A DNA stretch of 20,650 nucleotides, taken from assembly GCA_003144275.1 (NCBI GenBank), contig NJBF01000051.1:1-20650 (forward strand). Reading direction: 5' to 3'. The position numbers were made by a program, and so were the translations under genes. Below the pieces are notes generated by a model. It saw only the letters and a program-made list of their open reading frames with translations, made no database searches and had not been told where the DNA came from. This document shows, one piece after another, positions 1 through 14,705 of the stretch (positions within the stretch are counted from its first letter, which is position 1; every line of letters starts with the position of its first letter). The DNA comes from Candidatus Heimdallarchaeota archaeon B3_Heim. GTDB lineage: Archaea > Asgardarchaeota > Heimdallarchaeia > Hodarchaeales > Hodarchaeaceae.

Positions 1-177
1 TCTAATAGATTGAATGATGACATTACACCGTTAAATATTGATATGTTGACAACAGCATGTCCTCTTTGTCAAATGAACTTTAGAATTACCGCAAAAAGAA
101 AATCAATACCATTAAAAGTTAATGATATTACAGAAATTGTCGGATCTGTATTGAAAACGACTCCTGGCAAACTTTAA
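1..177 (+). CDS. 3' end of a CCG-domain Fe-S protein (HdrD/HdrB/GlpC family), partial
   Basis: Frame 1 is open from base 1 to TAA at 175-177: ...IDMLTTACPLCQMNF...LKVNDITEIVGSVL. The TxCPxC plus DIxE pattern is typical of the end of a CCG domain. Not in the ORF track because the start lies outside the window. Confidence 0.7.
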   Translation, partial: SNRLNDDITPLNIDMLTTACPLCQMNFRITAKRKSIPLKVNDITEIVGSVLKTTPGKL

Positions 178-674
178 GTCGCTGTCAACAATTTTTGCAT
201 TAGTTCGGAAAATCTTTGAGCTGCAACTCTACGCTTATGAAAATTTATAGCGGTTCCTTCAATGAACTGAAGCGCTTTCGGTTCACAATTCTTAACACAC
301 AACGGATCTCCATCACAAAGGTCACATTTCGTAATTTTCCCATTTTTACTTATCATAACTCCACCAAAGGGACAATGTGTTACACAAAGTTTACAGCCTA
401 CACATAGATCATAATCAATCAGAATAGCTCCAGTAGTTTCATCCTTAAATACCGCTCCCATGGGACAAACGGTCTCACAAATTGGATCTTCACACTGCTG
501 ACAAACTATCGGTATATATAAACCTGAACTCTCCCATTTAATCACTTGAATTCGTGCATAAGTCGGATTACAAACTTTTTCGTGGTGAAGAGAACAGACG
601 GTTTCACAAATTCGACACCCAGAACAATTCTCAGGATTTATAAATAGAAATTTCTGCATTGTAAGATTCTCCAT
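174..674 (-). CDS. 4x[4Fe-4S] electron-transfer subunit (DmsB/CooF/AorA-like), small subunit of the adjacent AOR
   Basis: Four Cys motifs: CSGCRICETVC, CQQCEDPICETVC, CVGCKLCVTHC, CDLCDGDPLCVKNC. Starts 10 nt downstream of the aor stop. Confidence 0.9.
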   Translation of the reverse strand: MENLTMQKFLFINPENCSGCRICETVCSLHHEKVCNPTYARIQVIKWESSGLYIPIVCQQCEDPICETVCPMGAVFKDETTGAILIDYDLCVGCKLCVTHCPFGGVMISKNGKITKCDLCDGDPLCVKNCEPKALQFIEGTAINFHKRRVAAQRFSELMQKLLTAT

Positions 675-684
675 TTCAGATGTT

Positions 685-2568
685 TTATGACTGTTTATTT
701 TCTATTCCAAGCCTCTGAAGAGTTTCTTCACTAGGAACTCCATTATTATCCCATTTATGAAGAGAATAGTATTCATCAATTAGAGAATTGAATTTTTCTT
801 TTTCGATCTTCTTTCCTTTGATTATAGGAAGTCCCAAAGGTGTTGGTTCTTTAAAGAATCGCTCAGGTAATTTATCGTCTTTTCTGGAAAATCCTTCGCG
901 ATTATTAAACATTCGCTCAGTTGTTACTATTCTTTCGCCGATTTCCATAAGTTCGGGCTTTGAAATTTTCAGAGCAGAAGTATATTCAATAAGCTTAGAA
1001 AATTCTTCGAATTTAGGCGCATTTACAGCGCAAAAAACAGTTTGAAACTTGCATATGCCAATTGAATCTGTAACTGCATATAAGAGCTCCTGCCACCAGA
1101 CCATACGGCTTTTTCCTTTATATGATGTATAATCTGAAGACATTGGTGCACCATAAATCTCTTCCAAGAGTTCTTCTGGGAGTCCATAAAGATCTATGGC
1201 AGGACGACTTCTCAAGTGATCCGCACCTCGAGTAGAAGTCGCGATACCCAACGCTAAACTTGGTGTAGGACGTTCGTCGGAATGTAAATTACTCATGCCT
1301 TTAATTTGCATGGCATAATACTCTGATTCCTTCCCTATTTTTGCTATTGCTGGTAGAAAACCATCAGCAAGTATGTTCCCTAAATCACCTTCTCTCATAC
1401 TGATTCTTTTGATGAGCTCGAAAACAACCTCTTCATTCCCCCATTCAAGATTTAAGCCATCGGTCATCTTTTCTGAAAGTAACCCCTTCTCATTAAGCTC
1501 CATAATCCAAGCTATTATCCCACCAACTTCTAGTGTATCAATACCATACTTATTTACAAGATGATTGCCAATAAGAATGGTTTCCATTTTTTTACAATCA
1601 ACCATTGTGCCAAACGCCCCAAGTGAAGTGTATTCTGGACCTTCACCAAAAATAGGAGCGTAAGGGCCTTCTTTTAGTACATATCGGTGACGACAGTGAA
1701 CACTGCAACCATAACAACCAGACATTCCAATTGTATATTCATCCATTACTTCAGGCTCTAAGTTTTCGCCATCCTCGAGCAAATTAAGCTGAAAATTACG
1801 TGTTCTAATTAATCCAGTAGTATTTGTGTTGCTATAGATTATGAGTGTTCCCCATTTTGATTGGGCACGTGCCCATCGTGAGCTTGTAATTTGATTATTC
1901 ATCTCTGAACAATAATCTAGCAATTTGTCAGGATATGCAAATTCTACGTCCATAGTTCCTCGGGTAGCAACTGCTTTCAAGTTCTTTGATCCCATAACGC
2001 ATCCCATCCCTGTTCGTCCAGCAGCATTCTTCATCCCAGTTCTTACATTTGCATATCTAACAAGATTCTCTCCTGCCTTGCCTATTACTAAACTCTTAAT
2101 CTGTTCATCATTGTGATCGGATCGGATTTGGTCTTGGGTTTCAAAGGTATCTTTCCCCCATAAATGGGTTGCATCATGAATTGATACTTCTCCATCATTT
2201 ATCCAAACATAACTTGGTTTTTCAGCTTTCCCAGTAATCATTAAATGATCAAAACCCGCGAATCTCAACTCAGGAGCAAAAAACCCCCCTATATTCGAAT
2301 CCCCAACTGCACCCGTTAAAGGTGATTTTGCTGCAATGTCACACCTTCCAGCACCTAGAGCTGGAATTCCTGTAAGTAAACCACTTCCTATGAGTAATAG
2401 ATTTTCAGGACCTAAGGGATCAATTCCAGCTTTGAGGTTATGATAGAGGTGGTACATATTTAGTCCTCTCCCGCCCAAGAATTGTTTCCGAAGGGATTTA
2501 GAAATTTCTTTTGTTTTTACCTTCCCCGTTGTTAGATTAATATACGCGATTTTCCTATTCCAGACCAT
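685..2568 (-). CDS. aor: tungsten-dependent aldehyde:ferredoxin oxidoreductase family protein (AOR/WOR)
   Basis: 627 aa with LGGRG, KSPLTG, GENLVRYA, GRTGMGCVMGSKNLKA, the Fe-S motif CYGCSVHC plus GICKF, GPEY, RGADHL and a C-terminal W-x3-GVP. GAGG RBS upstream. Confidence 0.93.
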   Translation of the reverse strand: MVWNRKIAYINLTTGKVKTKEISKSLRKQFLGGRGLNMYHLYHNLKAGIDPLGPENLLLIGSGLLTGIPALGAGRCDIAAKSPLTGAVGDSNIGGFFAPELRFAGFDHLMITGKAEKPSYVWINDGEVSIHDATHLWGKDTFETQDQIRSDHNDEQIKSLVIGKAGENLVRYANVRTGMKNAAGRTGMGCVMGSKNLKAVATRGTMDVEFAYPDKLLDYCSEMNNQITSSRWARAQSKWGTLIIYSNTNTTGLIRTRNFQLNLLEDGENLEPEVMDEYTIGMSGCYGCSVHCRHRYVLKEGPYAPIFGEGPEYTSLGAFGTMVDCKKMETILIGNHLVNKYGIDTLEVGGIIAWIMELNEKGLLSEKMTDGLNLEWGNEEVVFELIKRISMREGDLGNILADGFLPAIAKIGKESEYYAMQIKGMSNLHSDERPTPSLALGIATSTRGADHLRSRPAIDLYGLPEELLEEIYGAPMSSDYTSYKGKSRMVWWQELLYAVTDSIGICKFQTVFCAVNAPKFEEFSKLIEYTSALKISKPELMEIGERIVTTERMFNNREGFSRKDDKLPERFFKEPTPLGLPIIKGKKIEKEKFNSLIDEYYSLHKWDNNGVPSEETLQRLGIENKQS

Positions 2569-2587
2569 AGTAATAACCTCGAACGAT

Positions 2588-2734
2588 TTATTTTGCTAAA
2601 CCACGAATCTTTGGTTGATCTGGCTTGGGCCAAGAAATTCTATATTGAGTATTACATTGGGGGCATTCAGCTTTTTCACTATTAAATTTAACTTGAAATC
2701 TTTTCATACAATTTAAGCATCTGACTTCATTCAT
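2588..2734 (-). CDS. 48-aa CxxC-x14-CxxC zinc-ribbon/rubredoxin-like protein
   Basis: Manual translation: MNEVRCLNCMKRFQVKFNSEKAECPQCNTQYRISWPKPDQPKIRGLAK*. AGGTG RBS upstream of the ATG. It fills the moaD-aor gap with 15-nt and 19-nt spacers. Confidence 0.85.
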   Translation of the reverse strand: MNEVRCLNCMKRFQVKFNSEKAECPQCNTQYRISWPKPDQPKIRGLAK

Positions 2735-2749
2735 TGTAACAACACCTGT

Positions 2750-3034
2750 TTAACCGCCACCTACAGGAAGACTGAATATCAAAACATCTTTATCTTTTAT
2801 TTTCTCATCAGTATCTCTAATTCCTTTTCCATTCAACATCACAAGAATATCGTTAGAAATTTTACCTGTTTGAGAGTTAATAACGTTATGAAAATCATTA
2901 CCGTACTTTTTCACTAAACGTGTTAAAATTCTTTCAAAAGTACATTCTTCACTTATTTCTTCAATGATTTTCCTTTTTTTAGTAATTTGTCTGAAAGATG
3001 CATGAAATAAGATTTCAATACTACCTTTCATCAT
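2750..3034 (-). CDS. moaD: MoaD/ThiS/SAMP-family ubiquitin-like sulfur carrier
   Basis: Beta-grasp pattern (ILFHASFRQIT, VMLNGKGI, DVLIFSLPVGGG) with C-terminal di-glycine. ATG at 3034/3031 preferred over the TTG at 3064. Leads the AOR operon, consistent with a pterin-cofactor sulfur carrier. Confidence 0.85.
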   Translation of the reverse strand: MMKGSIEILFHASFRQITKKRKIIEEISEECTFERILTRLVKKYGNDFHNVINSQTGKISNDILVMLNGKGIRDTDEKIKDKDVLIFSLPVGGG

Positions 3035-3094
3035 AATATTCAATCTCGTAGTAATAATCTTCAAAGGTATTATTCTCGTTCTTCATGTTTTTTA

Positions 3095-4007: not shown

Positions 4008-5159
4008 ATGCAACTTGTACAAAAAGAAGAAAATAATTTTTTCAACCAATTCAAGGATTGGTACGAAGATCGACATGAGTATGCAAAGGCTTGGAAAGAA
4101 CGCACTGGGGGAAAGGTGATAGGATATTTCTGTACCTACGTACCCGAAGAAATTCTTTATGCCGCAAACATACTTCCAGTCCGTATTTTAGGAAGTCATG
4201 AACCACAGGATGTTACAGAACCACATATTTTCGCGATGTTCTGTCCGTTTTGTCGCGATTGCCTTGCACAAGGATTGAAAGGCCGTTTTGACTATCTAGA
4301 TGGAATAATGATCGCTCAAAGCTGTCTTCACATCAGACAGGCATATACAAGCTGGGATCTCCATATTCCCACAGATTATAGTTACTACCTACCTCATCCA
4401 ATGCATGTCCAGAGTCCTCATGCTATTCCTTACCTAAAGGATGAGTTGATTCAATTCAAAAAATCTCTAGAAAAATGGATTGGTCATCCTATCACTGAGA
4501 AGGACTTAAAAAATGGTAGTGAACTAATGAACAAAAATCGACGCTTGATGAATCAAGTGTATGAGCTTAGAAAAAAACCCAACCCACCCCTTACAGGATT
4601 AGAAGCAATGTACATGGTAGTATCAAGTCAAATGATAGATAAGGAAGAACATAACAGTGAGTTGGAGGTGCTTCTTCAAAAGCTACCTTCACGTGATATA
4701 GGTGATCCTGGAGAAAGGCTAATAATCATAGGGTCTGAAGATGACGATACAAAGTTTATAGAAATGGTGGAAGATCTAGGAGCAACATTTGTTACTGACG
4801 ATCATTGCACAGGTACTCGTTATTTCCAAGAAGAAGTGAATCCATCAGAAGATTTAATGACTGCAATTGCAGAACGATATGTAAAACGCGTACCATGCCC
4901 GTCTAAAGATTGGCCTAAACGCACTAGACTTGATCATATTATGCGAATGAGTAAGGAATATTCAGTTCAAGGGGCCATATTGATACAACAGAAATTTTGT
5001 GATCCACACGAATTGGATACACCCGCAATAAAAGAAAAACTAGAAGATAAGGGAATTTCAACTTTATTCCTTGAGTTTGATGTTACTGTGCCAATTGGTC
5101 AATTCAAAACCCGTGTTGAGGCATTTCTTGAAATATTACGAGAGGAGGATTTATTTTAG
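4008..5159 (+). CDS. bzdN: benzoyl-CoA reductase, bzd-type, subunit N
   Basis: [51 protein letters not shown] and LFLEFD...LF closely match Azoarcus-type BzdN as recalled. First gene of the N-O-P-Q order. Confidence 0.93.
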
Positions 5160-11450: not shown

Positions 11451-12401
11451 TCAAAATTTAGTTTCTATAGCATGGACATAAGTGGTAGTCGCCTCATTAA
11501 ATGGGACAGGAACATTATTTTTCTTTCCAAGTTCGACAATCTTACCATTTAGAAAATCAATTTCCGTAGGATTTCGATTCTCTATATCAATTAACATTGA
11601 AGGTTTATGATGTCCACCTTTGGATAAATATCCCATACAAATGTCATGAAAATCTGATCCAAATGAAATCCCAATAGCTTCTGTAACTGCAATACCTTCA
11701 CGTATTAATTCACTTGCGAGTTTATTCGTGTCTGTAAAGTCCATTGCTTCTTTCATTGTTTGACCTGCTATAGCACATACTGGGGCTAAAGCAGAATTTA
11801 AAATTACTTTTTTCCAAACAGCAGGTTGAATATCTTCAACAGATATGGTACCAAATTCAGGTGAATTCATCAATTCAGCTATAGCATTAGCTGTATCATT
11901 CATACTAGGTGATATTGCACCAACAAAATTCGGTGGATTAAAAAAGGTCATATCTATCTTTCCTGCTTCAACGATATTTCCAGCGTAATTTATGACATCA
12001 CGAAATGTCCTCTCTTCTCCAAATACGTCTAATATGACATTTTCTGTGTGTAACCCATTTTGATGGCTAACGATTAGAGAATCATTTGGAAGGACTTCCT
12101 TTAAATCATCAACAACTCTTTTCAAGTATGGAGTTTTAGTAGCGATAAATACAATGTCAACATCTGTTCCTCTAAGGTCTTTAACGGACGTTTTTAGATG
12201 ATCCGCATCAAAAGAAATAGTTAAATCTGAAACACCAGCTATTTTCAATCCAGATCTTTGAATTGCCTCAATGTGATCTATCCAAATATCTACTAAAGTA
12301 ACTTCTATCCCTTTTTGAGATAAAAATGCTCCTAAAATGCCGCCAGAAGGCCCTACGCCCACAATTGCAACCTTATAATCCTCTTTACTCATAACAATCA
12401 C
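11451..12401 (-). CDS. panE: ketopantoate reductase PanE/ApbA-family 2-oxoacid reductase
   Basis: GVGPSGG Rossmann motif, IATK, HQNGL, catalytic WKKVILN, SMLIDIENRNPTEIDFLNGKIV. Starts at GTG 12401 or ATG 12392. Confidence 0.85.
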   Translation of the reverse strand: MIVMSKEDYKVAIVGVGPSGGILGAFLSQKGIEVTLVDIWIDHIEAIQRSGLKIAGVSDLTISFDADHLKTSVKDLRGTDVDIVFIATKTPYLKRVVDDLKEVLPNDSLIVSHQNGLHTENVILDVFGEERTFRDVINYAGNIVEAGKIDMTFFNPPNFVGAISPSMNDTANAIAELMNSPEFGTISVEDIQPAVWKKVILNSALAPVCAIAGQTMKEAMDFTDTNKLASELIREGIAVTEAIGISFGSDFHDICMGYLSKGGHHKPSMLIDIENRNPTEIDFLNGKIVELGKKNNVPVPFNEATTTYVHAIETKF

Positions 12402-12437
12402 TTTTGATATCAGAAATTGAACAGAATAATTTGTAAA

Positions 12438-12458
12438 ACATTATTATTTCGATAATGT
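12438..12458. promoter_or_regulatory. inverted repeat ACATTAT-N7-ATAATGT upstream of panE
   Basis: Perfect 7-bp arms in the 141-nt gap between the activase gene and panE. Confidence 0.3.
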
Positions 12459-12542
12459 ATCTATTTATTAATTATTTTCATAGGATATTCTATGTCTCTA
12501 GGATGCGAATAATACCTTGATGTTACTAGATTTGCTGGAATT

Positions 12543-13334
12543 CTATTTATCTTGACCTTCAAGAGCATATAGTGCTGCTCCCAAAGCAACAAATGACTGA
12601 GGAGTAGGGGGAACAGAGATTGGCTGTTCTAAAAGTTCTTCAAATATGTTTACAATAACAGAATTGTGGGCAATTACCCCACCCGTCAATACAACCCTAT
12701 TATCAAAAGTATCGATTTCAAGAACTCGCTTGACAATAGAATGGTATGCTCCTCGAACCATATCCTCAACCTTTGCTCCTTCTCTAATACGACTAAGAAT
12801 TTCAGTTCCTGCAAAAACTGTACAATAACTACTAATTTTTGCAGGGTTTGTAGATAATTTTCCTAGGTTATTTAACTCCGTGGATTCAATCCGTAATTTT
12901 AGTGCAAGTTCTTCGAGAAATGTTCCTGTTCCTGCAGCGCACTTCCGATTCATTTTAAAACTGGAACGTCTGCCGTCTCGAATTTTTATTATTTTGGAAT
13001 CTTGCCCGCCAATATCAACAATCGTAACATCCTCCTCTGGATATACAAATCTTGCAGCTTTTGCGGAACACGAAATCTCTGTTATATTAGAAGTAATAAT
13101 ATCTTCAAAATGTGTATTCTTACGACCATACCCTGTTATCACCATTTTCTTGATATTATCTTCATCAGATTTTGCTGATAACGATTCTTTCAAAGCTTTT
13201 TCAGCAGCAACATGTAATTTTATTCCTGAATGAATAGTACTCGATCCAATTATATTTTTATTTGCATTAATTGTAACAGCTTTAGTAAAAGATGAACCAA
13301 TATCAATTCCAGTAAAGAGGAAATTATTAGGCAA
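12543..13334 (-). CDS. ATP-dependent acyl-CoA dehydratase/reductase activase (HgdC/FldI/HadI family)
   Basis: GIDIGSS, TGYGR, DIGGQDSK, NRKCAAGTG, CTVFAGTE. TTG start with GGAG RBS. Confidence 0.9.
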   Translation of the reverse strand: MPNNFLFTGIDIGSSFTKAVTINANKNIIGSSTIHSGIKLHVAAEKALKESLSAKSDEDNIKKMVITGYGRKNTHFEDIITSNITEISCSAKAARFVYPEEDVTIVDIGGQDSKIIKIRDGRRSSFKMNRKCAAGTGTFLEELALKLRIESTELNNLGKLSTNPAKISSYCTVFAGTEILSRIREGAKVEDMVRGAYHSIVKRVLEIDTFDNRVVLTGGVIAHNSVIVNIFEELLEQPISVPPTPQSFVALGAALYALEGQDK

Positions 13335-13374
13335 GAAATACTCTCCATTTAGGTAATTTTACTTTAATATTTTC

Positions 13375-14601
13375 TTAAATTCCGGCAAGTTGTTCGATAA
13401 ATGCTTCAATATTTGTTTTAGTTTGTTCCTCACTATAAACATTTAAATCATTAAGATCAGCATCGATTTGTAAAGAAGGGATTCCAGTTAGGTTTTCTAA
13501 TCGTTTTGGCAAACCATAATTTGTATTGGAATTATTTGGGCAAGTCCTAGCATTATGGTATATCATACCATCTATGCTAAATTTATCAACCATTTTCTTT
13601 AGATATTTTTCTTTGCTTGATTCAGATCGATTTATGAACAATTCTGTGTATGCTTTTGCCATGCTTCTGAATGGTTCTTGTGGATTGAAATCACTGAATA
13701 TCCAACTATTGCAATAAGTTGATGCAACAATACATGTTTTCAATTCTGAAAATTGATTCGACAATGCTCTTAATTTTCCCCAGATGGGCATTCCTTCCCA
13801 AAAACATCTAAATGATTCCTCAGCAACTGCTGCAATTCCGTTTTCGATTCTTAGTTTGAGTTCTTGTTCTAGCATATTATAATAGTCAACTGCAATTTGT
13901 GTTCCTCGTAAAACTACAGCAGGAAGCATATGAATACAGCCATCAAAAAACGTTAAAGGTGAGGGAATGGACGAAGCTGTTTCTAAGACAGAATTCCATT
14001 TATTACTACACTCAAGCGAAAGTTGTAGCTTATTTTCTAACTTTTTTCTTTCAAAACTCTGATCTGTGATTTTTTCAAGAGTTTCTGCTATATCTTTCAG
14101 CTGTTCTTCCACAGTTTTAAAGTGAGTGTTTGATAATTCGTCAATGAAGGTAGGGGAATTAACTCCTAGAATTGGAACCTGAAACTCTCTTGCATAATAA
14201 TTGAACCAATCTTGGACATCACGACATTGATTTGTGTTAAAAATGAGTACATCTGGCTTTGGAACTTTTTCTATTCCATAGGCTCTCTGTAATCCTGTTT
14301 CATTTTTTAAATAAGCACCTATATCACTCGTGAGATAAGAACATATTTCTGGGGAATAACCCTGAGCAACTGCTAATGGAATGTATTTATTTGCACTACG
14401 ACTGGCGCCTAAAATGGCGGTATGATTCTCTGGATAATATACATTGAAATCAAACGCTAAAAGGAGTTCTGCGGGGCCCACACTAGAACACCAAGCAACT
14501 TTTTTATGTGGATCTTTTGATGCTTCATCCAAATTCTGATAGTAGTCTGTAGCTATTTTTTTAAGTTCGTGGACCGATTTAATCTGATTTTCTTGGGTCA
14601 T
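13375..14601 (-). CDS. 2-hydroxyacyl-CoA dehydratase-family Fe-S subunit (HgdA/FldB-like or DCCP-like)
   Basis: YPEN, EICSY, PKPD, NQC, WEGMPIW, RTC, IDADLND, TNIEAFIE. ATG 14601 has an AGGA RBS; the track starts at 14682. Confidence 0.88.
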   Translation of the reverse strand: MTQENQIKSVHELKKIATDYYQNLDEASKDPHKKVAWCSSVGPAELLLAFDFNVYYPENHTAILGASRSANKYIPLAVAQGYSPEICSYLTSDIGAYLKNETGLQRAYGIEKVPKPDVLIFNTNQCRDVQDWFNYYAREFQVPILGVNSPTFIDELSNTHFKTVEEQLKDIAETLEKITDQSFERKKLENKLQLSLECSNKWNSVLETASSIPSPLTFFDGCIHMLPAVVLRGTQIAVDYYNMLEQELKLRIENGIAAVAEESFRCFWEGMPIWGKLRALSNQFSELKTCIVASTYCNSWIFSDFNPQEPFRSMAKAYTELFINRSESSKEKYLKKMVDKFSIDGMIYHNARTCPNNSNTNYGLPKRLENLTGIPSLQIDADLNDLNVYSEEQTKTNIEAFIEQLAGI

Positions 14602-14705
14602 CTCTATCCTATCATCAAAATTCTGAATTAAGGTATTTGGGATGAAAATAGAAACCAACTTTTTATAATAGTTGGGCTGCATTTATAGCTGTTATCTAGC
14701 TGCTT

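What the first reader, a model, noticed from the sequence alone, without database searches (positions are those of the whole stretch)
2588..2734. Unannotated 48-aa four-cysteine protein inside a tungsten AOR operon
Below the ORF-track cutoff, yet it has its own AGGTG RBS, tight spacing to both neighbours, two CxxC pairs (CLNC, CPQC) and a WPKPDQPKIRG tail. Its position between the sulfur carrier and the W enzyme suggests a metal (Zn/Fe) binding maturation factor or a rubredoxin-like electron carrier for this AOR (inference). Characterised AOR operons such as that of Aromatoleum aromaticum also include small accessory genes, but I cannot assign this one to a known family.
Basis: partly seen in the sequence, partly recalled or inferred. 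Interest (0 to 1): 0.65.

Follow-up and report, generated by a model that had tools for sequence, protein, structure and literature searches.

The report
Zinc-ribbon partner of tungsten enzyme clade
The 48-residue four-cysteine gene is real and belongs to a large, unnamed family of tiny zinc-ribbon proteins that always accompanies one distinct branch of tungsten-type aldehyde-oxidoreductase enzymes in bacteria and archaea, so it is probably an overlooked small partner needed to build or run that enzyme.

Summary
Observation confirmed. The ORF lies on the minus strand at 2588-2734, with an AGGTG ribosome-binding site, 15 nt after a MoaD/ThiS-like gene and 19 nt before an AOR-family gene. It is under purifying selection (dN/dS about 0.10).

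It is not a lineage oddity. At least 1,275 protein clusters belong to the family, all labelled hypothetical or mis-named RpoP, Nob1 or DUF1610. No Pfam, NCBIfam or PDB family fits beyond a generic zinc ribbon.

- A pattern scan built from the peptide alone gave 105 family loci in many bacterial and archaeal phyla; 100 hold an AOR gene, usually directly downstream (median gap 11 nt).
- All linked AORs form one clade (support 1.0) that excludes 27 unlinked paralogues.
- Among 400 Asgard genomes, all 57 with this AOR clade have the gene.
- The clade replaces two of four conserved active-site residues (PfAOR Glu313 to Thr, Tyr427 to Ser).
- In at least eight lineages the protein is fused directly after the Gly-Gly end of the MoaD-like protein.

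AlphaFold2 gives a confident zinc ribbon plus beta-hairpin.

Best reading: a WorL-binding accessory microprotein that works with the MoaD-like WorX in assembly or cofactor loading. Binding is inferred, not shown. A rubredoxin-like carrier is unlikely.

This scan noted the same gene earlier on other DNA (e1-925511, e1-5541770, e1-5645575).

The parts
2588..2734 (-). 48-aa Cys4 zinc-ribbon microprotein (P0001), the subject of the finding
   Evidence: Translation; dN/dS 0.10; AF2 pLDDT 92.8 with five beta-strands; family of at least 1,275 clusters.
2743..2747 (-). AGGTG Shine-Dalgarno-like site 8 nt upstream of the microprotein ATG
   Evidence: Sequence; GGTG-type motifs at the same place in 17 orthologous loci.
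2750..3031 (-). MoaD/ThiS-like ubiquitin-fold protein ending GGG ('WorX' of PMC13328260). The likely start is the ATG at 3031 (93 aa), not the TTG at 3064.
   Evidence: Pfam ThiS 24.0 bits (cut-off 22.5) and TIGR01687 46.5 bits; orthologues are 93 aa; fused to the zinc ribbon in other lineages.
2576..2580 (-). GAGGT ribosome-binding site of the AOR gene, inside the 19-nt gap after the microprotein stop
   Evidence: Sequence; conserved GAGG in orthologues.
685..2568 (-). AOR/WOR-family large subunit (WorL), 627 aa, of the clade that always carries the zinc-ribbon partner. Thr314 and Ser430 replace PfAOR Glu313 and Tyr427.
   Evidence: AFOR_N + AFOR_C; PDB best match 1aor, E 3.6e-105; clade support 1.0; residue counts.
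174..674 (-). Poly-[4Fe-4S] ferredoxin subunit (WorS/AorA-like), last gene of the operon
   Evidence: Fer4 families; PDB 9mqx_E and 8c0z_C at E about 4e-36; a convergent ORF follows at 1-177 on the + strand.

Best explanation
The gene encodes a compact, basic, Cys4 zinc-ribbon microprotein. It is a dedicated partner of one monophyletic, catalytically divergent clade of AOR/WOR-family pterin enzymes (WorL plus poly-ferredoxin WorS). Proposed mechanism, which is inferred: it binds the WorL subunit of this clade through a conserved interface, and it also docks or escorts the operon's MoaD-like ubiquitin-fold protein (WorX). In that way it acts in assembly or tungsten-cofactor loading of the enzyme. 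My own split on whether it stays bound afterwards as a small third subunit is about 55:45 in favour of retained over transient. Shown here: it is a real coding gene; it is strictly co-inherited and operon-coupled with this AOR clade; it diverges together with WorL; it is recurrently fused behind the Gly-Gly of WorX; and it is predicted with high confidence as a zinc-ribbon fold. Not shown: metal identity, physical binding, and any effect on activity.
For: - Coding: dN/dS 0.10.
- Linkage, from a pattern built on the peptide alone: 105 family loci across Chloroflexota, Desulfobacterota, Myxococcia, Gemmatimonadota, Bathyarchaeia, Archaeoglobi, Methanomethylicia and Asgard lineages. Of these, 100 hold an AOR, and 0 of 15 non-family control loci do.
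- The gap from the zinc-ribbon stop to the AOR start has a median of 11 nt; 67 of 85 are 30 nt or less and 8 overlap.
- Specificity: 3-15 AOR paralogues but one intact zinc-ribbon gene beside an AOR per complete genome (G087 also has a second, partly masked copy); own genome 8 AORs, one zinc ribbon.
- All 85 linked AORs form one clade with support 1.0, excluding 27 unlinked paralogues.
- Phyletic pattern in 400 Asgard genomes: 57 have both, 0 have the clade AOR alone, and 2 have the zinc ribbon alone, one of them (G311) at a contig end. Within the genus the pattern is 16 of 16 with both and 0 of 6 with either.
- Constraint resembles a structural subunit: median pairwise identity is 0.47 for the zinc ribbon, 0.57 for AOR, 0.50 for the ferredoxin and 0.24 for MoaD-like. 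Distance correlation is 0.80-0.85 with AOR and 0.46 with MoaD-like.
- Link to WorX: at least 8 natural fusions of ThiS domain, GG, then zinc ribbon; MoaD-like gene upstream of and near the zinc ribbon, in the same orientation, in about 20 loci (immediately adjacent in about 15).
- Fold: pLDDT 92.8. In the fusion only the GGG junction is disordered.
- Context from the literature: MoaD-like AorD/E raise activity and W content of Aromatoleum AOR (PMC9295118). AOR-adjacent Ubls matter for W enzymes in Thermococcus kodakarensis (PMC11323500).
Against: - No direct evidence of binding. AF2 here is single-chain, so no complex of the zinc ribbon with WorL could be modelled.
- In the natural fusion the two domains are not confidently docked (pTM 0.64, flexible GG linker).
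- No zinc-ribbon fusion to WorL or WorS was found in 1.84 billion representative proteins.
- Gene position is not universal. About 9 Asgard loci have it divergent from the AOR. Some operons place it last: AOR-Fd-MoaD-Z, with an FAD-subunit (AorC-like) gene between MoaD and Z confirmed in L070, or AOR-Fd-Z.
- One Bathyarchaeial locus (L048) has a MoaD-like/zinc-ribbon pair with no AOR within 3.7 kb, and one genome has an orphan second copy.
- The MoaD-like gene is in only 43 of 105 loci.
- Characterised WOR enzymes purify without such a subunit, but none of them belongs to this clade.
Confidence: 0.58

Rival explanations
1. It is purely a cofactor-biosynthesis partner of the MoaD-like protein. 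It acts on WorX (for example its activation, thiocarboxylation or MPT-synthase step) and never touches the AOR. Its linkage to the AOR only reflects a shared operon.
For: Fusions directly behind the GG of the ThiS domain; an orphan MoaD-like/zinc-ribbon pair without AOR in L048; WorX-type proteins are held to act in pterin biosynthesis (PMC13328260; PMC1779556).
Against: The MoaD-like gene is absent from 62 of 105 loci, whereas an AOR is present in 100. The zinc ribbon co-diverges with AOR (0.80-0.85), not with MoaD-like (0.46), and is far more conserved than MoaD-like. It accompanies only one of 3-15 AOR paralogues that all need the same cofactor.
Confidence: 0.15
2. It is a rubredoxin-like Fe(Cys)4 one-electron carrier for this AOR.
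For: Four Cys in two CxxC knuckles. Small FeS or Zn subunits of redox enzymes appear among weak fold matches (9o8u_D Z 3.5, Rieske-type domains Z 2.5).
Against: There is no rubredoxin family hit. Knuckle spacing is 14 residues, and no Gly follows the first knuckle. The protein is strongly basic, pI 9.6. The best fold matches are the Zn proteins LysW and IBR/RING2. The enzyme already has a dedicated poly-ferredoxin wire. Fusion to a ubiquitin-fold sulfur carrier makes no sense for a redox carrier.
Confidence: 0.05
3. It is a nucleic-acid-binding regulator, transcriptional or translational, of the AOR operon and not a partner of the enzyme.
For: It is basic. Weak similarities to RpoP, Brz-type and ribosomal zinc ribbons. 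It is divergently transcribed from the AOR in one Asgard family.
Against: The same 45-residue core is conserved across bacteria and archaea, whose transcription machineries differ. In most loci it is translationally coupled inside the operon. Bacterial operons have their own divergent IclR regulator. The RpoP model scores 21.7 against a cut-off of 84. Fusion to MoaD-like is unexplained.
Confidence: 0.07
4. It is a passive passenger: a conserved microprotein with an unrelated cellular role that happens to be syntenic.
For: Function is untested. There is an orphan copy in one genome.
Against: Co-occurrence is perfect with one AOR clade across about ten phyla and several gene orders. It is lost together with the AOR within a genus.
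Confidence: 0.03

Closest known systems
WorX / AorD-AorE: MoaD/ThiS-like accessory proteins of AOR/WOR operons (PMC1779556; PMC9295118; PMC13328260)
   Same: Small accessory genes encoded beside WorL and not counted among the catalytic subunits. AorDE improve activity and W loading. The window's operon has such a gene directly upstream of the microprotein, and other lineages fuse the two.
   Different: WorX is a beta-grasp protein with a Gly-Gly end. The microprotein is a Cys4 zinc ribbon with no Gly-Gly end, is much more conserved, and is restricted to one WorL clade. It is not mentioned in the papers read here.
LysW, the zinc-ribbon amino-group carrier protein (PDB 3wwl, 3vpb)
   Same: Best structural match (Z 4.8, rmsd 1.9 A over 45 of 48 residues). 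About 50 aa, Cys4 zinc ribbon, operon-encoded helper of enzymes.
   Different: It has no acidic EDWGE-type C-terminal tail for substrate attachment, the opposite charge, and no sequence relationship. Z below 5 is within the range of generic small-fold resemblance.
Ubiquitin fused to zinc-binding ribosomal proteins eL40 and eS31 (established knowledge, not tested here)
   Same: Same layout in the fused relatives: ubiquitin-fold domain, Gly-Gly, then directly a small basic Cys4 zinc-binding protein destined for a larger assembly.
   Different: There is no detectable homology of the zinc ribbon to eL40 or eS31. Cleavage at Gly-Gly is not shown. In the window the two are separate genes.
Zinc-ribbon modules of metalloenzyme maturation factors (HypA, FdhE)
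   Same: CxxC...CxxC modules in proteins that mature Ni or Mo enzymes. There is a weak HypA zinc-domain similarity (E 0.004).
   Different: Scores are far below family cut-offs (17.7 against 28.9). It has no metal-delivery domain and is only 48 aa.
RpoP/Rpo12 RNA polymerase subunit (the name given by some JGI records)
   Same: Size and Cys4 zinc ribbon.
   Different: NF001608 scores 21.7 bits against a cut-off of 84. The genomic context is always an AOR, and the family also occurs in bacteria, which lack RpoP. This is a mis-annotation.

Membership tests
Zinc ribbon (generic fold; Pfam Zn_ribbon_4 PF13717, NCBIfam TIGR02098 MJ0042_CXXC) | Two CxxC knuckles on beta-hairpins that form one Cys4 metal site | tested here: met
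   C6-x2-C9 and C24-x2-C27 are invariant in 47 diverse members. The AF2 model (pLDDT 92.8) places the knuckles between strands 3-5/12-14 and 21-23/30-37.
Zinc ribbon (generic fold; Pfam Zn_ribbon_4 PF13717, NCBIfam TIGR02098 MJ0042_CXXC) | Score above the curated family cut-off over the whole domain | tested here: inconclusive
   PF13717 scores 25.2 against 30.3 (below cut-off). TIGR02098 scores 25.7 against 20.9 (above), but only 13 residues per stretch match the first 15 model positions.
RpoP / Rpo12 | Equivalog model score at or above cut-off | tested here: not met
   NF001608 scores 21.7 bits against a cut-off of 84.
Rubredoxin | CxxCG ... CPxCG knuckles about 29 residues apart with an aromatic core, and a family model hit | tested here: not met
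   No rubredoxin family at E up to 1 in Pfam or NCBIfam. The spacing is 14 residues and the first knuckle is followed by L, M or F.
LysW amino-group carrier | Acidic C-terminal tail ending in Glu for substrate ligation | tested here: not met
   The C-terminus is KIRGLAK and the net charge is +6. Only 2 of 47 members touch PF21344, at E about 9e-4.
LysW amino-group carrier | Fold similarity | tested here: inconclusive
   3wwl_A gives Z 4.8, rmsd 1.9 A over 45 residues, which is not separated from unrelated zinc ribbons.
MoaD/ThiS ubiquitin-fold sulfur carriers (neighbour gene, 2750-3031) | Beta-grasp domain ending in Gly-Gly | tested here: met
   PF02597 scores 24.0 against 22.5; the protein ends GGG. 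Thiocarboxylation was not testable.
AOR sensu stricto (partner enzyme, 685-2568) | AFOR_N + AFOR_C domains and four Cys for the [4Fe-4S] cluster | tested here: met
   PF02730 scores 259 bits and PF01314 376 bits. The CxxCxxxC motif and the distal Cys align with PfAOR C288, C291, C295 and C494.
AOR sensu stricto (partner enzyme, 685-2568) | Second-shell catalytic residues Thr243, Glu313, Tyr427 and His448 (PfAOR numbering; PMC12096430, PMC13328260) | tested here: not met
   Thr and His are kept, but the Glu313 position is Thr (71 of the 86 ZnR-labelled AORs in the alignment, which include all 85 clade members; never Glu) and the Tyr427 position is Ser (74 of 86). Unlinked paralogues have Glu in 25 of 27 and Tyr or His in 20 of 27.
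Class II WOR (WorSL) of PMC13328260 | WorL plus an adjacent poly-ferredoxin WorS, without FAD or Bfu subunits | tested here: met
   The operon is MoaD-like, zinc ribbon, WorL, WorS, followed by a convergent ORF. The extra zinc-ribbon gene is not part of that class definition.

The most novel reading that the evidence does not exclude
The zinc ribbon is an obligate third subunit of a new kind of tungsten pterin enzyme. This enzyme's active site has lost the catalytic Glu and Tyr of aldehyde oxidoreductases. In some archaea the subunit is made as a ubiquitin-fold-GlyGly-zinc-ribbon precursor that is cut by a JAMM protease, a prokaryotic counterpart of the eukaryotic ubiquitin-eL40 and ubiquitin-eS31 fusions in which the ubiquitin fold escorts a small basic zinc protein into its complex. 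The basic subunit may help bind an acidic or CoA-type substrate.
Probability: 0.15. Interest if true: 0.85.

Novelty: new variant of a known kind. Interest (0 to 1): 0.64.

Why it matters
[quoted passage not shown] This work defines a large, unnamed microprotein family (at least 1,275 clusters). The family is a perfect genomic marker of one WOR clade with a remodelled active site, found in anaerobes that dominate sediments and aquifers (Dehalococcoidia, Anaerolineae, Desulfobacterota, Bathyarchaeia, Asgard archaea), often beside aromatic and acyl-CoA pathways.

Practical consequences:
- Heterologous expression or structural work on this clade that omits the 150-nt gene may fail.
- Gene callers and operon-based WOR classifications miss it.
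- The fusion behind a ubiquitin-fold Gly-Gly gives a testable case of Ubl-precursor processing, or Ubl-assisted assembly, outside eukaryotes.

Tried and rejected
Genome searches and a DNA pattern scan replaced it.
It was rewritten with gap notation.
- Programmed read-through or a recently split gene: in the window the MoaD-like gene and the microprotein are in the same frame, separated by TAA plus 5 codons. Across 15 adjacent pairs the frames are 0, 1 and 2 in roughly equal numbers and each gene has its own RBS, so this idea was rejected.
- A hidden RNA gene: nothing in Rfam.
- RpoP, Nob1 and DUF1610 names from JGI records: rejected on scores and context.
- Fusion to WorL or WorS: none among hits in 1.84 billion representatives. 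The long hits are multi-zinc-ribbon proteins that match only the knuckles.
- A recalled YqeB/XdhC-like identity for the N-terminus of P0022: no Pfam support, so it was dropped.
- Whether Aromatoleum AorD or AorE belongs to this family could not be tested, because no sequence was accessible. The authors call both MoaD-like.
- Foldseek against the PDB gave no match at E 0.001 or better. The ESM Atlas gave only hypothetical clusters.
- No cultured organism was identified among the family loci; the 105 with a strong family match are all MAG records, so no proteomic evidence could be looked up.

Full report
**1. The observation**

The window's minus strand carries a tight four-gene operon:
- a MoaD/ThiS-like gene at 2750-3031, ending GGG;
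- the 48-aa ORF at 2588-2734;
- an AOR-family gene at 685-2568 (AFOR_N + AFOR_C);
- a poly-[4Fe-4S] ferredoxin at 174-674.

The gaps between them are 15, 19 and 10 nt. The ORF has AGGTG 8 nt before its ATG, two CxxC knuckles 14 residues apart, and the C-terminal RISWPKPDQPKIRG stretch. A convergent ORF at the window start shows that the operon ends with the ferredoxin. The genome is an Asgard (Hodarchaeales-type) MAG, judged from the names of near-identical database proteins. It has 8 AOR paralogues and 5 ThiS/MoaD-like genes but only one copy of this ORF.

**2. It is a real gene**

Seventeen orthologous loci in 16 of the 22 genomes of the genus (15 of the 21 other than the window's own) keep the order MoaD-like, zinc ribbon, AOR. 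Among 15 orthologues the median dN/dS is 0.10. Third codon positions vary in 39 of 45 columns against 12 of 45 for second positions, and the other frames contain stops. Twenty-five residues are invariant among the 12 aligned sequences. Rfam finds no RNA here.

**3. What family**

Pfam and NCBIfam give only sub-threshold or partial generic zinc-ribbon hits, and the RpoP model is far below its cut-off. A profile search of the PDB finds only generic zinc ribbons. The family is nevertheless large:
- 92 representatives at 50% identity;
- at least 1,275 clusters at 90% identity with E of 1e-6 or better, all hypothetical or mis-named RpoP, Nob1 or DUF1610.

The consensus is R-C-x2-C-x2-R-x11-C-P-x-C-x4-[YW]R[IL]SW-x5/6-[PA][KR][IV]RG, and bacterial members often continue with PVW. 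The core is basic, with a median pI of 9.4; the window's protein has pI 9.6 and net charge +6.

AlphaFold2 with a 47-sequence alignment gives pLDDT 92.8 and five strands (3-5, 12-14, 21-23, 30-37, 40-46). The conserved 'tail' is therefore a beta-hairpin packed onto a zinc ribbon. The best fold matches are LysW (Z 4.8) and the IBR/RING2 domains of RBR ligases (Z 3-4.6). All are weak and none implies function.

**4. Linkage to one AOR clade**

A DNA pattern back-translated from the peptide's invariant residues alone was scanned over one genome per prokaryotic species.

| Measure | Result |
|---|---|
| Family loci holding an AOR | 100 of 105 |
| Family loci without an AOR that are cut by a contig end | 4 of 5 |
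| Non-family control loci holding an AOR | 0 of 15 |

Gene orders, where Z is the zinc ribbon, A the AOR, F the ferredoxin and M the MoaD-like gene:

| Order | Loci |
|---|---|
| Z-A-F | 32 |
| Z-A (truncated) | 22 |
| Z-A-F-M | 12 |
| M-Z-A-F | 8 |
| M-Z-A | 3 |
| Divergent Asgard form | 9 |
| A-F-M-Z, with about 1.0-1.3 kb (an FAD-subunit/AorC-like gene, confirmed in L070) between M and Z | 4 |
| Fused M=Z before A | 1 |

The Z stop to A start gap has a median of 11 nt; 67 of 85 are 30 nt or less, and 8 overlap. In bacteria a divergent IclR regulator often precedes Z, which makes Z the first gene of the operon.

Five complete MAGs have 3-15 AOR paralogues each. Each has exactly one intact Z next to one of them, and one MAG (G087) also has a second, partly masked copy. 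In a 113-sequence tree, all 85 linked AORs form a single clade with support 1.0 that excludes all 27 unlinked paralogues.

Across 400 Asgard genomes the hits to the window's AOR are bimodal: 68% identity or more, or 45% or less. All 57 genomes with the high-identity enzyme have Z, none has the enzyme without Z, and two have Z alone, one of them (G311) at a contig end. Within the genus, the 6 genomes without Z also lack the enzyme.

**5. The partner enzyme is not an ordinary AOR**

An earlier scan note (e1-925511) suggested this, so I tested it. Aldehyde-oxidising AORs conserve Thr243, Glu313, Tyr427 and His448 in PfAOR numbering (PMC12096430, PMC13328260). The window's enzyme keeps Thr and His but has Thr314 for Glu313 and Ser430 for Tyr427.

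| PfAOR position | 86 ZnR-labelled AORs (all 85 clade members plus one linked AOR outside the clade) | Unlinked paralogues (27) |
|---|---|---|
| Glu313 | Thr 71, never Glu | Glu 25 |
| Tyr427 | Ser 74 | Tyr or His 20 |

The clade's closest solved relatives are PfAOR, WorL of WorABCSL and AorB. Its ferredoxin matches WorS/AorA.

**6. Link to the MoaD-like protein**

A search among longer proteins and the representative search found seven distinct clusters in which a complete ThiS domain ending in GG, GGG or GGGGG is followed within 1-8 residues by the zinc ribbon. These are P0016, P0017, P0020, P0021, P0044, P0052 and P0067. A GTDB-representative Methanomethylicia gene (L102) is an eighth case, and it sits directly before its AOR.

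AF2 of one fusion gives two confident domains, with only the GGG junction below pLDDT 50 and pTM 0.64. This is a flexible, exposed Gly-Gly linker rather than a docked pair. The genome with the fused gene encodes two JAMM proteases, which shows only that cleavage is plausible.

A MoaD-like gene lies upstream of and near Z, in the same orientation, in about 20 loci (immediately adjacent in about 15) and elsewhere in the operon in about 20 more, but is absent from 62 of 105 loci. Reading frames across the M-to-Z junction vary, so these are separate genes and not read-through products.

**7. Relative constraint**

| Protein | Median pairwise identity |
|---|---|
| Zinc ribbon (Z) | 0.47 |
| AOR | 0.57 |
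| Ferredoxin | 0.50 |
| MoaD-like | 0.24 |

Z distances correlate with AOR distances at 0.80-0.85 and with MoaD-like distances at only 0.46. Z therefore evolves like the structural ferredoxin subunit and together with WorL. Shared ancestry contributes to these correlations, so they are supportive only.

**8. Interpretation**

Shown: a translated, strongly constrained zinc-ribbon microprotein, strictly co-inherited and mostly translationally coupled with one catalytically divergent WorL/WorS clade, and recurrently fused behind the Gly-Gly of the operon's ubiquitin-fold protein.

Inferred: it binds WorL and works with WorX in assembly or cofactor loading, and it may remain as a small subunit.

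Literature context:
- MoaD-like genes are strictly adjacent to AOR genes in scattered lineages (PMC1779556).
- AorDE raise the activity and W content of Aromatoleum AOR (PMC9295118).
- AOR-adjacent Ubls contribute to W-enzyme activity in Thermococcus kodakarensis, whose authors note an unknown mechanism that directs the cofactor to particular enzymes (PMC11323500).
- None of the papers read, including the 2026 five-class operon classification that names the ThiS-like gene WorX, mentions a zinc-ribbon partner.

The rivals are scored separately: WorX-only cofactor-biosynthesis partner, rubredoxin-like carrier, regulator, and passenger. The rubredoxin idea is the weakest, given the spacing, the charge, the lack of any family hit, and the enzyme's own ferredoxin wire.

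**9. Exceptions and limits**

- One Bathyarchaeial locus has an M-Z pair with no AOR nearby.
- One genome has a second, partly masked orphan copy.
- All 105 strong family loci are MAG records, so no proteomic or genetic data could be tied to the gene.
- Metal identity, binding, Gly-Gly cleavage, and W versus Mo are all untested.
- The scan had already flagged this gene on other DNA. Those notes were leads, not evidence.

Noticed in passing
window 685-2568 (-): The AOR-family enzyme has Thr314 and Ser430 where aldehyde-oxidising AORs have the catalytic-sphere Glu313 and Tyr427 (PfAOR numbering). A clade-specific His sits at 429. The whole zinc-ribbon-linked clade shares these changes, so the substrate may not be a simple aldehyde.
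   Followed up: yes
window 2735-2752 (-): The MoaD-like gene and the microprotein are in the same reading frame, separated only by TAA and five codons. This mimics the natural fusions. Orthologues show all three frame relations, so it is coincidence, not read-through.
   Followed up: yes
L036 (G000:C101:659-3832), 1498-2417 (-): Another AOR paralogue of the same genome is preceded by three tandem small ORFs: one ThiS-like ending GGG, and two of 97-112 aa that look like degenerate beta-grasp proteins. There is no zinc ribbon.
   Followed up: partly
window 11451-14682 (-) and L086 3364-5697: The PanE-like reductase plus HGD-D dehydratase-type subunit (with a BcrAD-type activase in the window) recurs near the zinc-ribbon/AOR operon in unrelated lineages such as Anaerolineales. 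Thiolase, CoA-ligase and IclR genes are also frequent neighbours. This hints at a shared acyl-CoA or aromatic pathway context.
   Followed up: partly
L081 5687-7836; also L069, L111, L119, L138, L152, L156: In one Asgard family the microprotein is monocistronic and divergent from AOR-ferredoxin (about 280-320 nt apart). It is followed by a 516-aa CCG/Fer4 (HdrD/GlpC-like) gene on the other strand and then a co-directional MoaD-like gene.
   Followed up: partly
L047 6710-7021; proteins P0019, P0037, P0058, P0066: A Chloroflexota-type subgroup carries a conserved C-terminal extension (PGPGPWP-GWPGELD...) after the zinc ribbon. In L047 the gene sits after the ferredoxin instead of before the AOR.
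   Followed up: no
L190 (G087:C1:1031000-1039500), 4086-4298 (+): There is a second copy of the microprotein in a Bathyarchaeota genome, far from any AOR and next to membrane-protein genes. Its 3' half is masked (reads N), so it could not be judged.
   Followed up: partly
L070 2960-7122 (-): A gammaproteobacterial MAG has AOR, ferredoxin, MoaD-like, Pyr_redox_2 (AorC-like FAD subunit) and zinc ribbon in that order. The microprotein therefore also occurs in NAD-type (Class III-like) operons of this clade.
   Followed up: partly
window 3064 versus 3031: The mechanical ORF of the MoaD-like gene starts at TTG 3064 (104 aa). Orthologues are 93 aa, which points to the ATG at 3031.
   Followed up: partly
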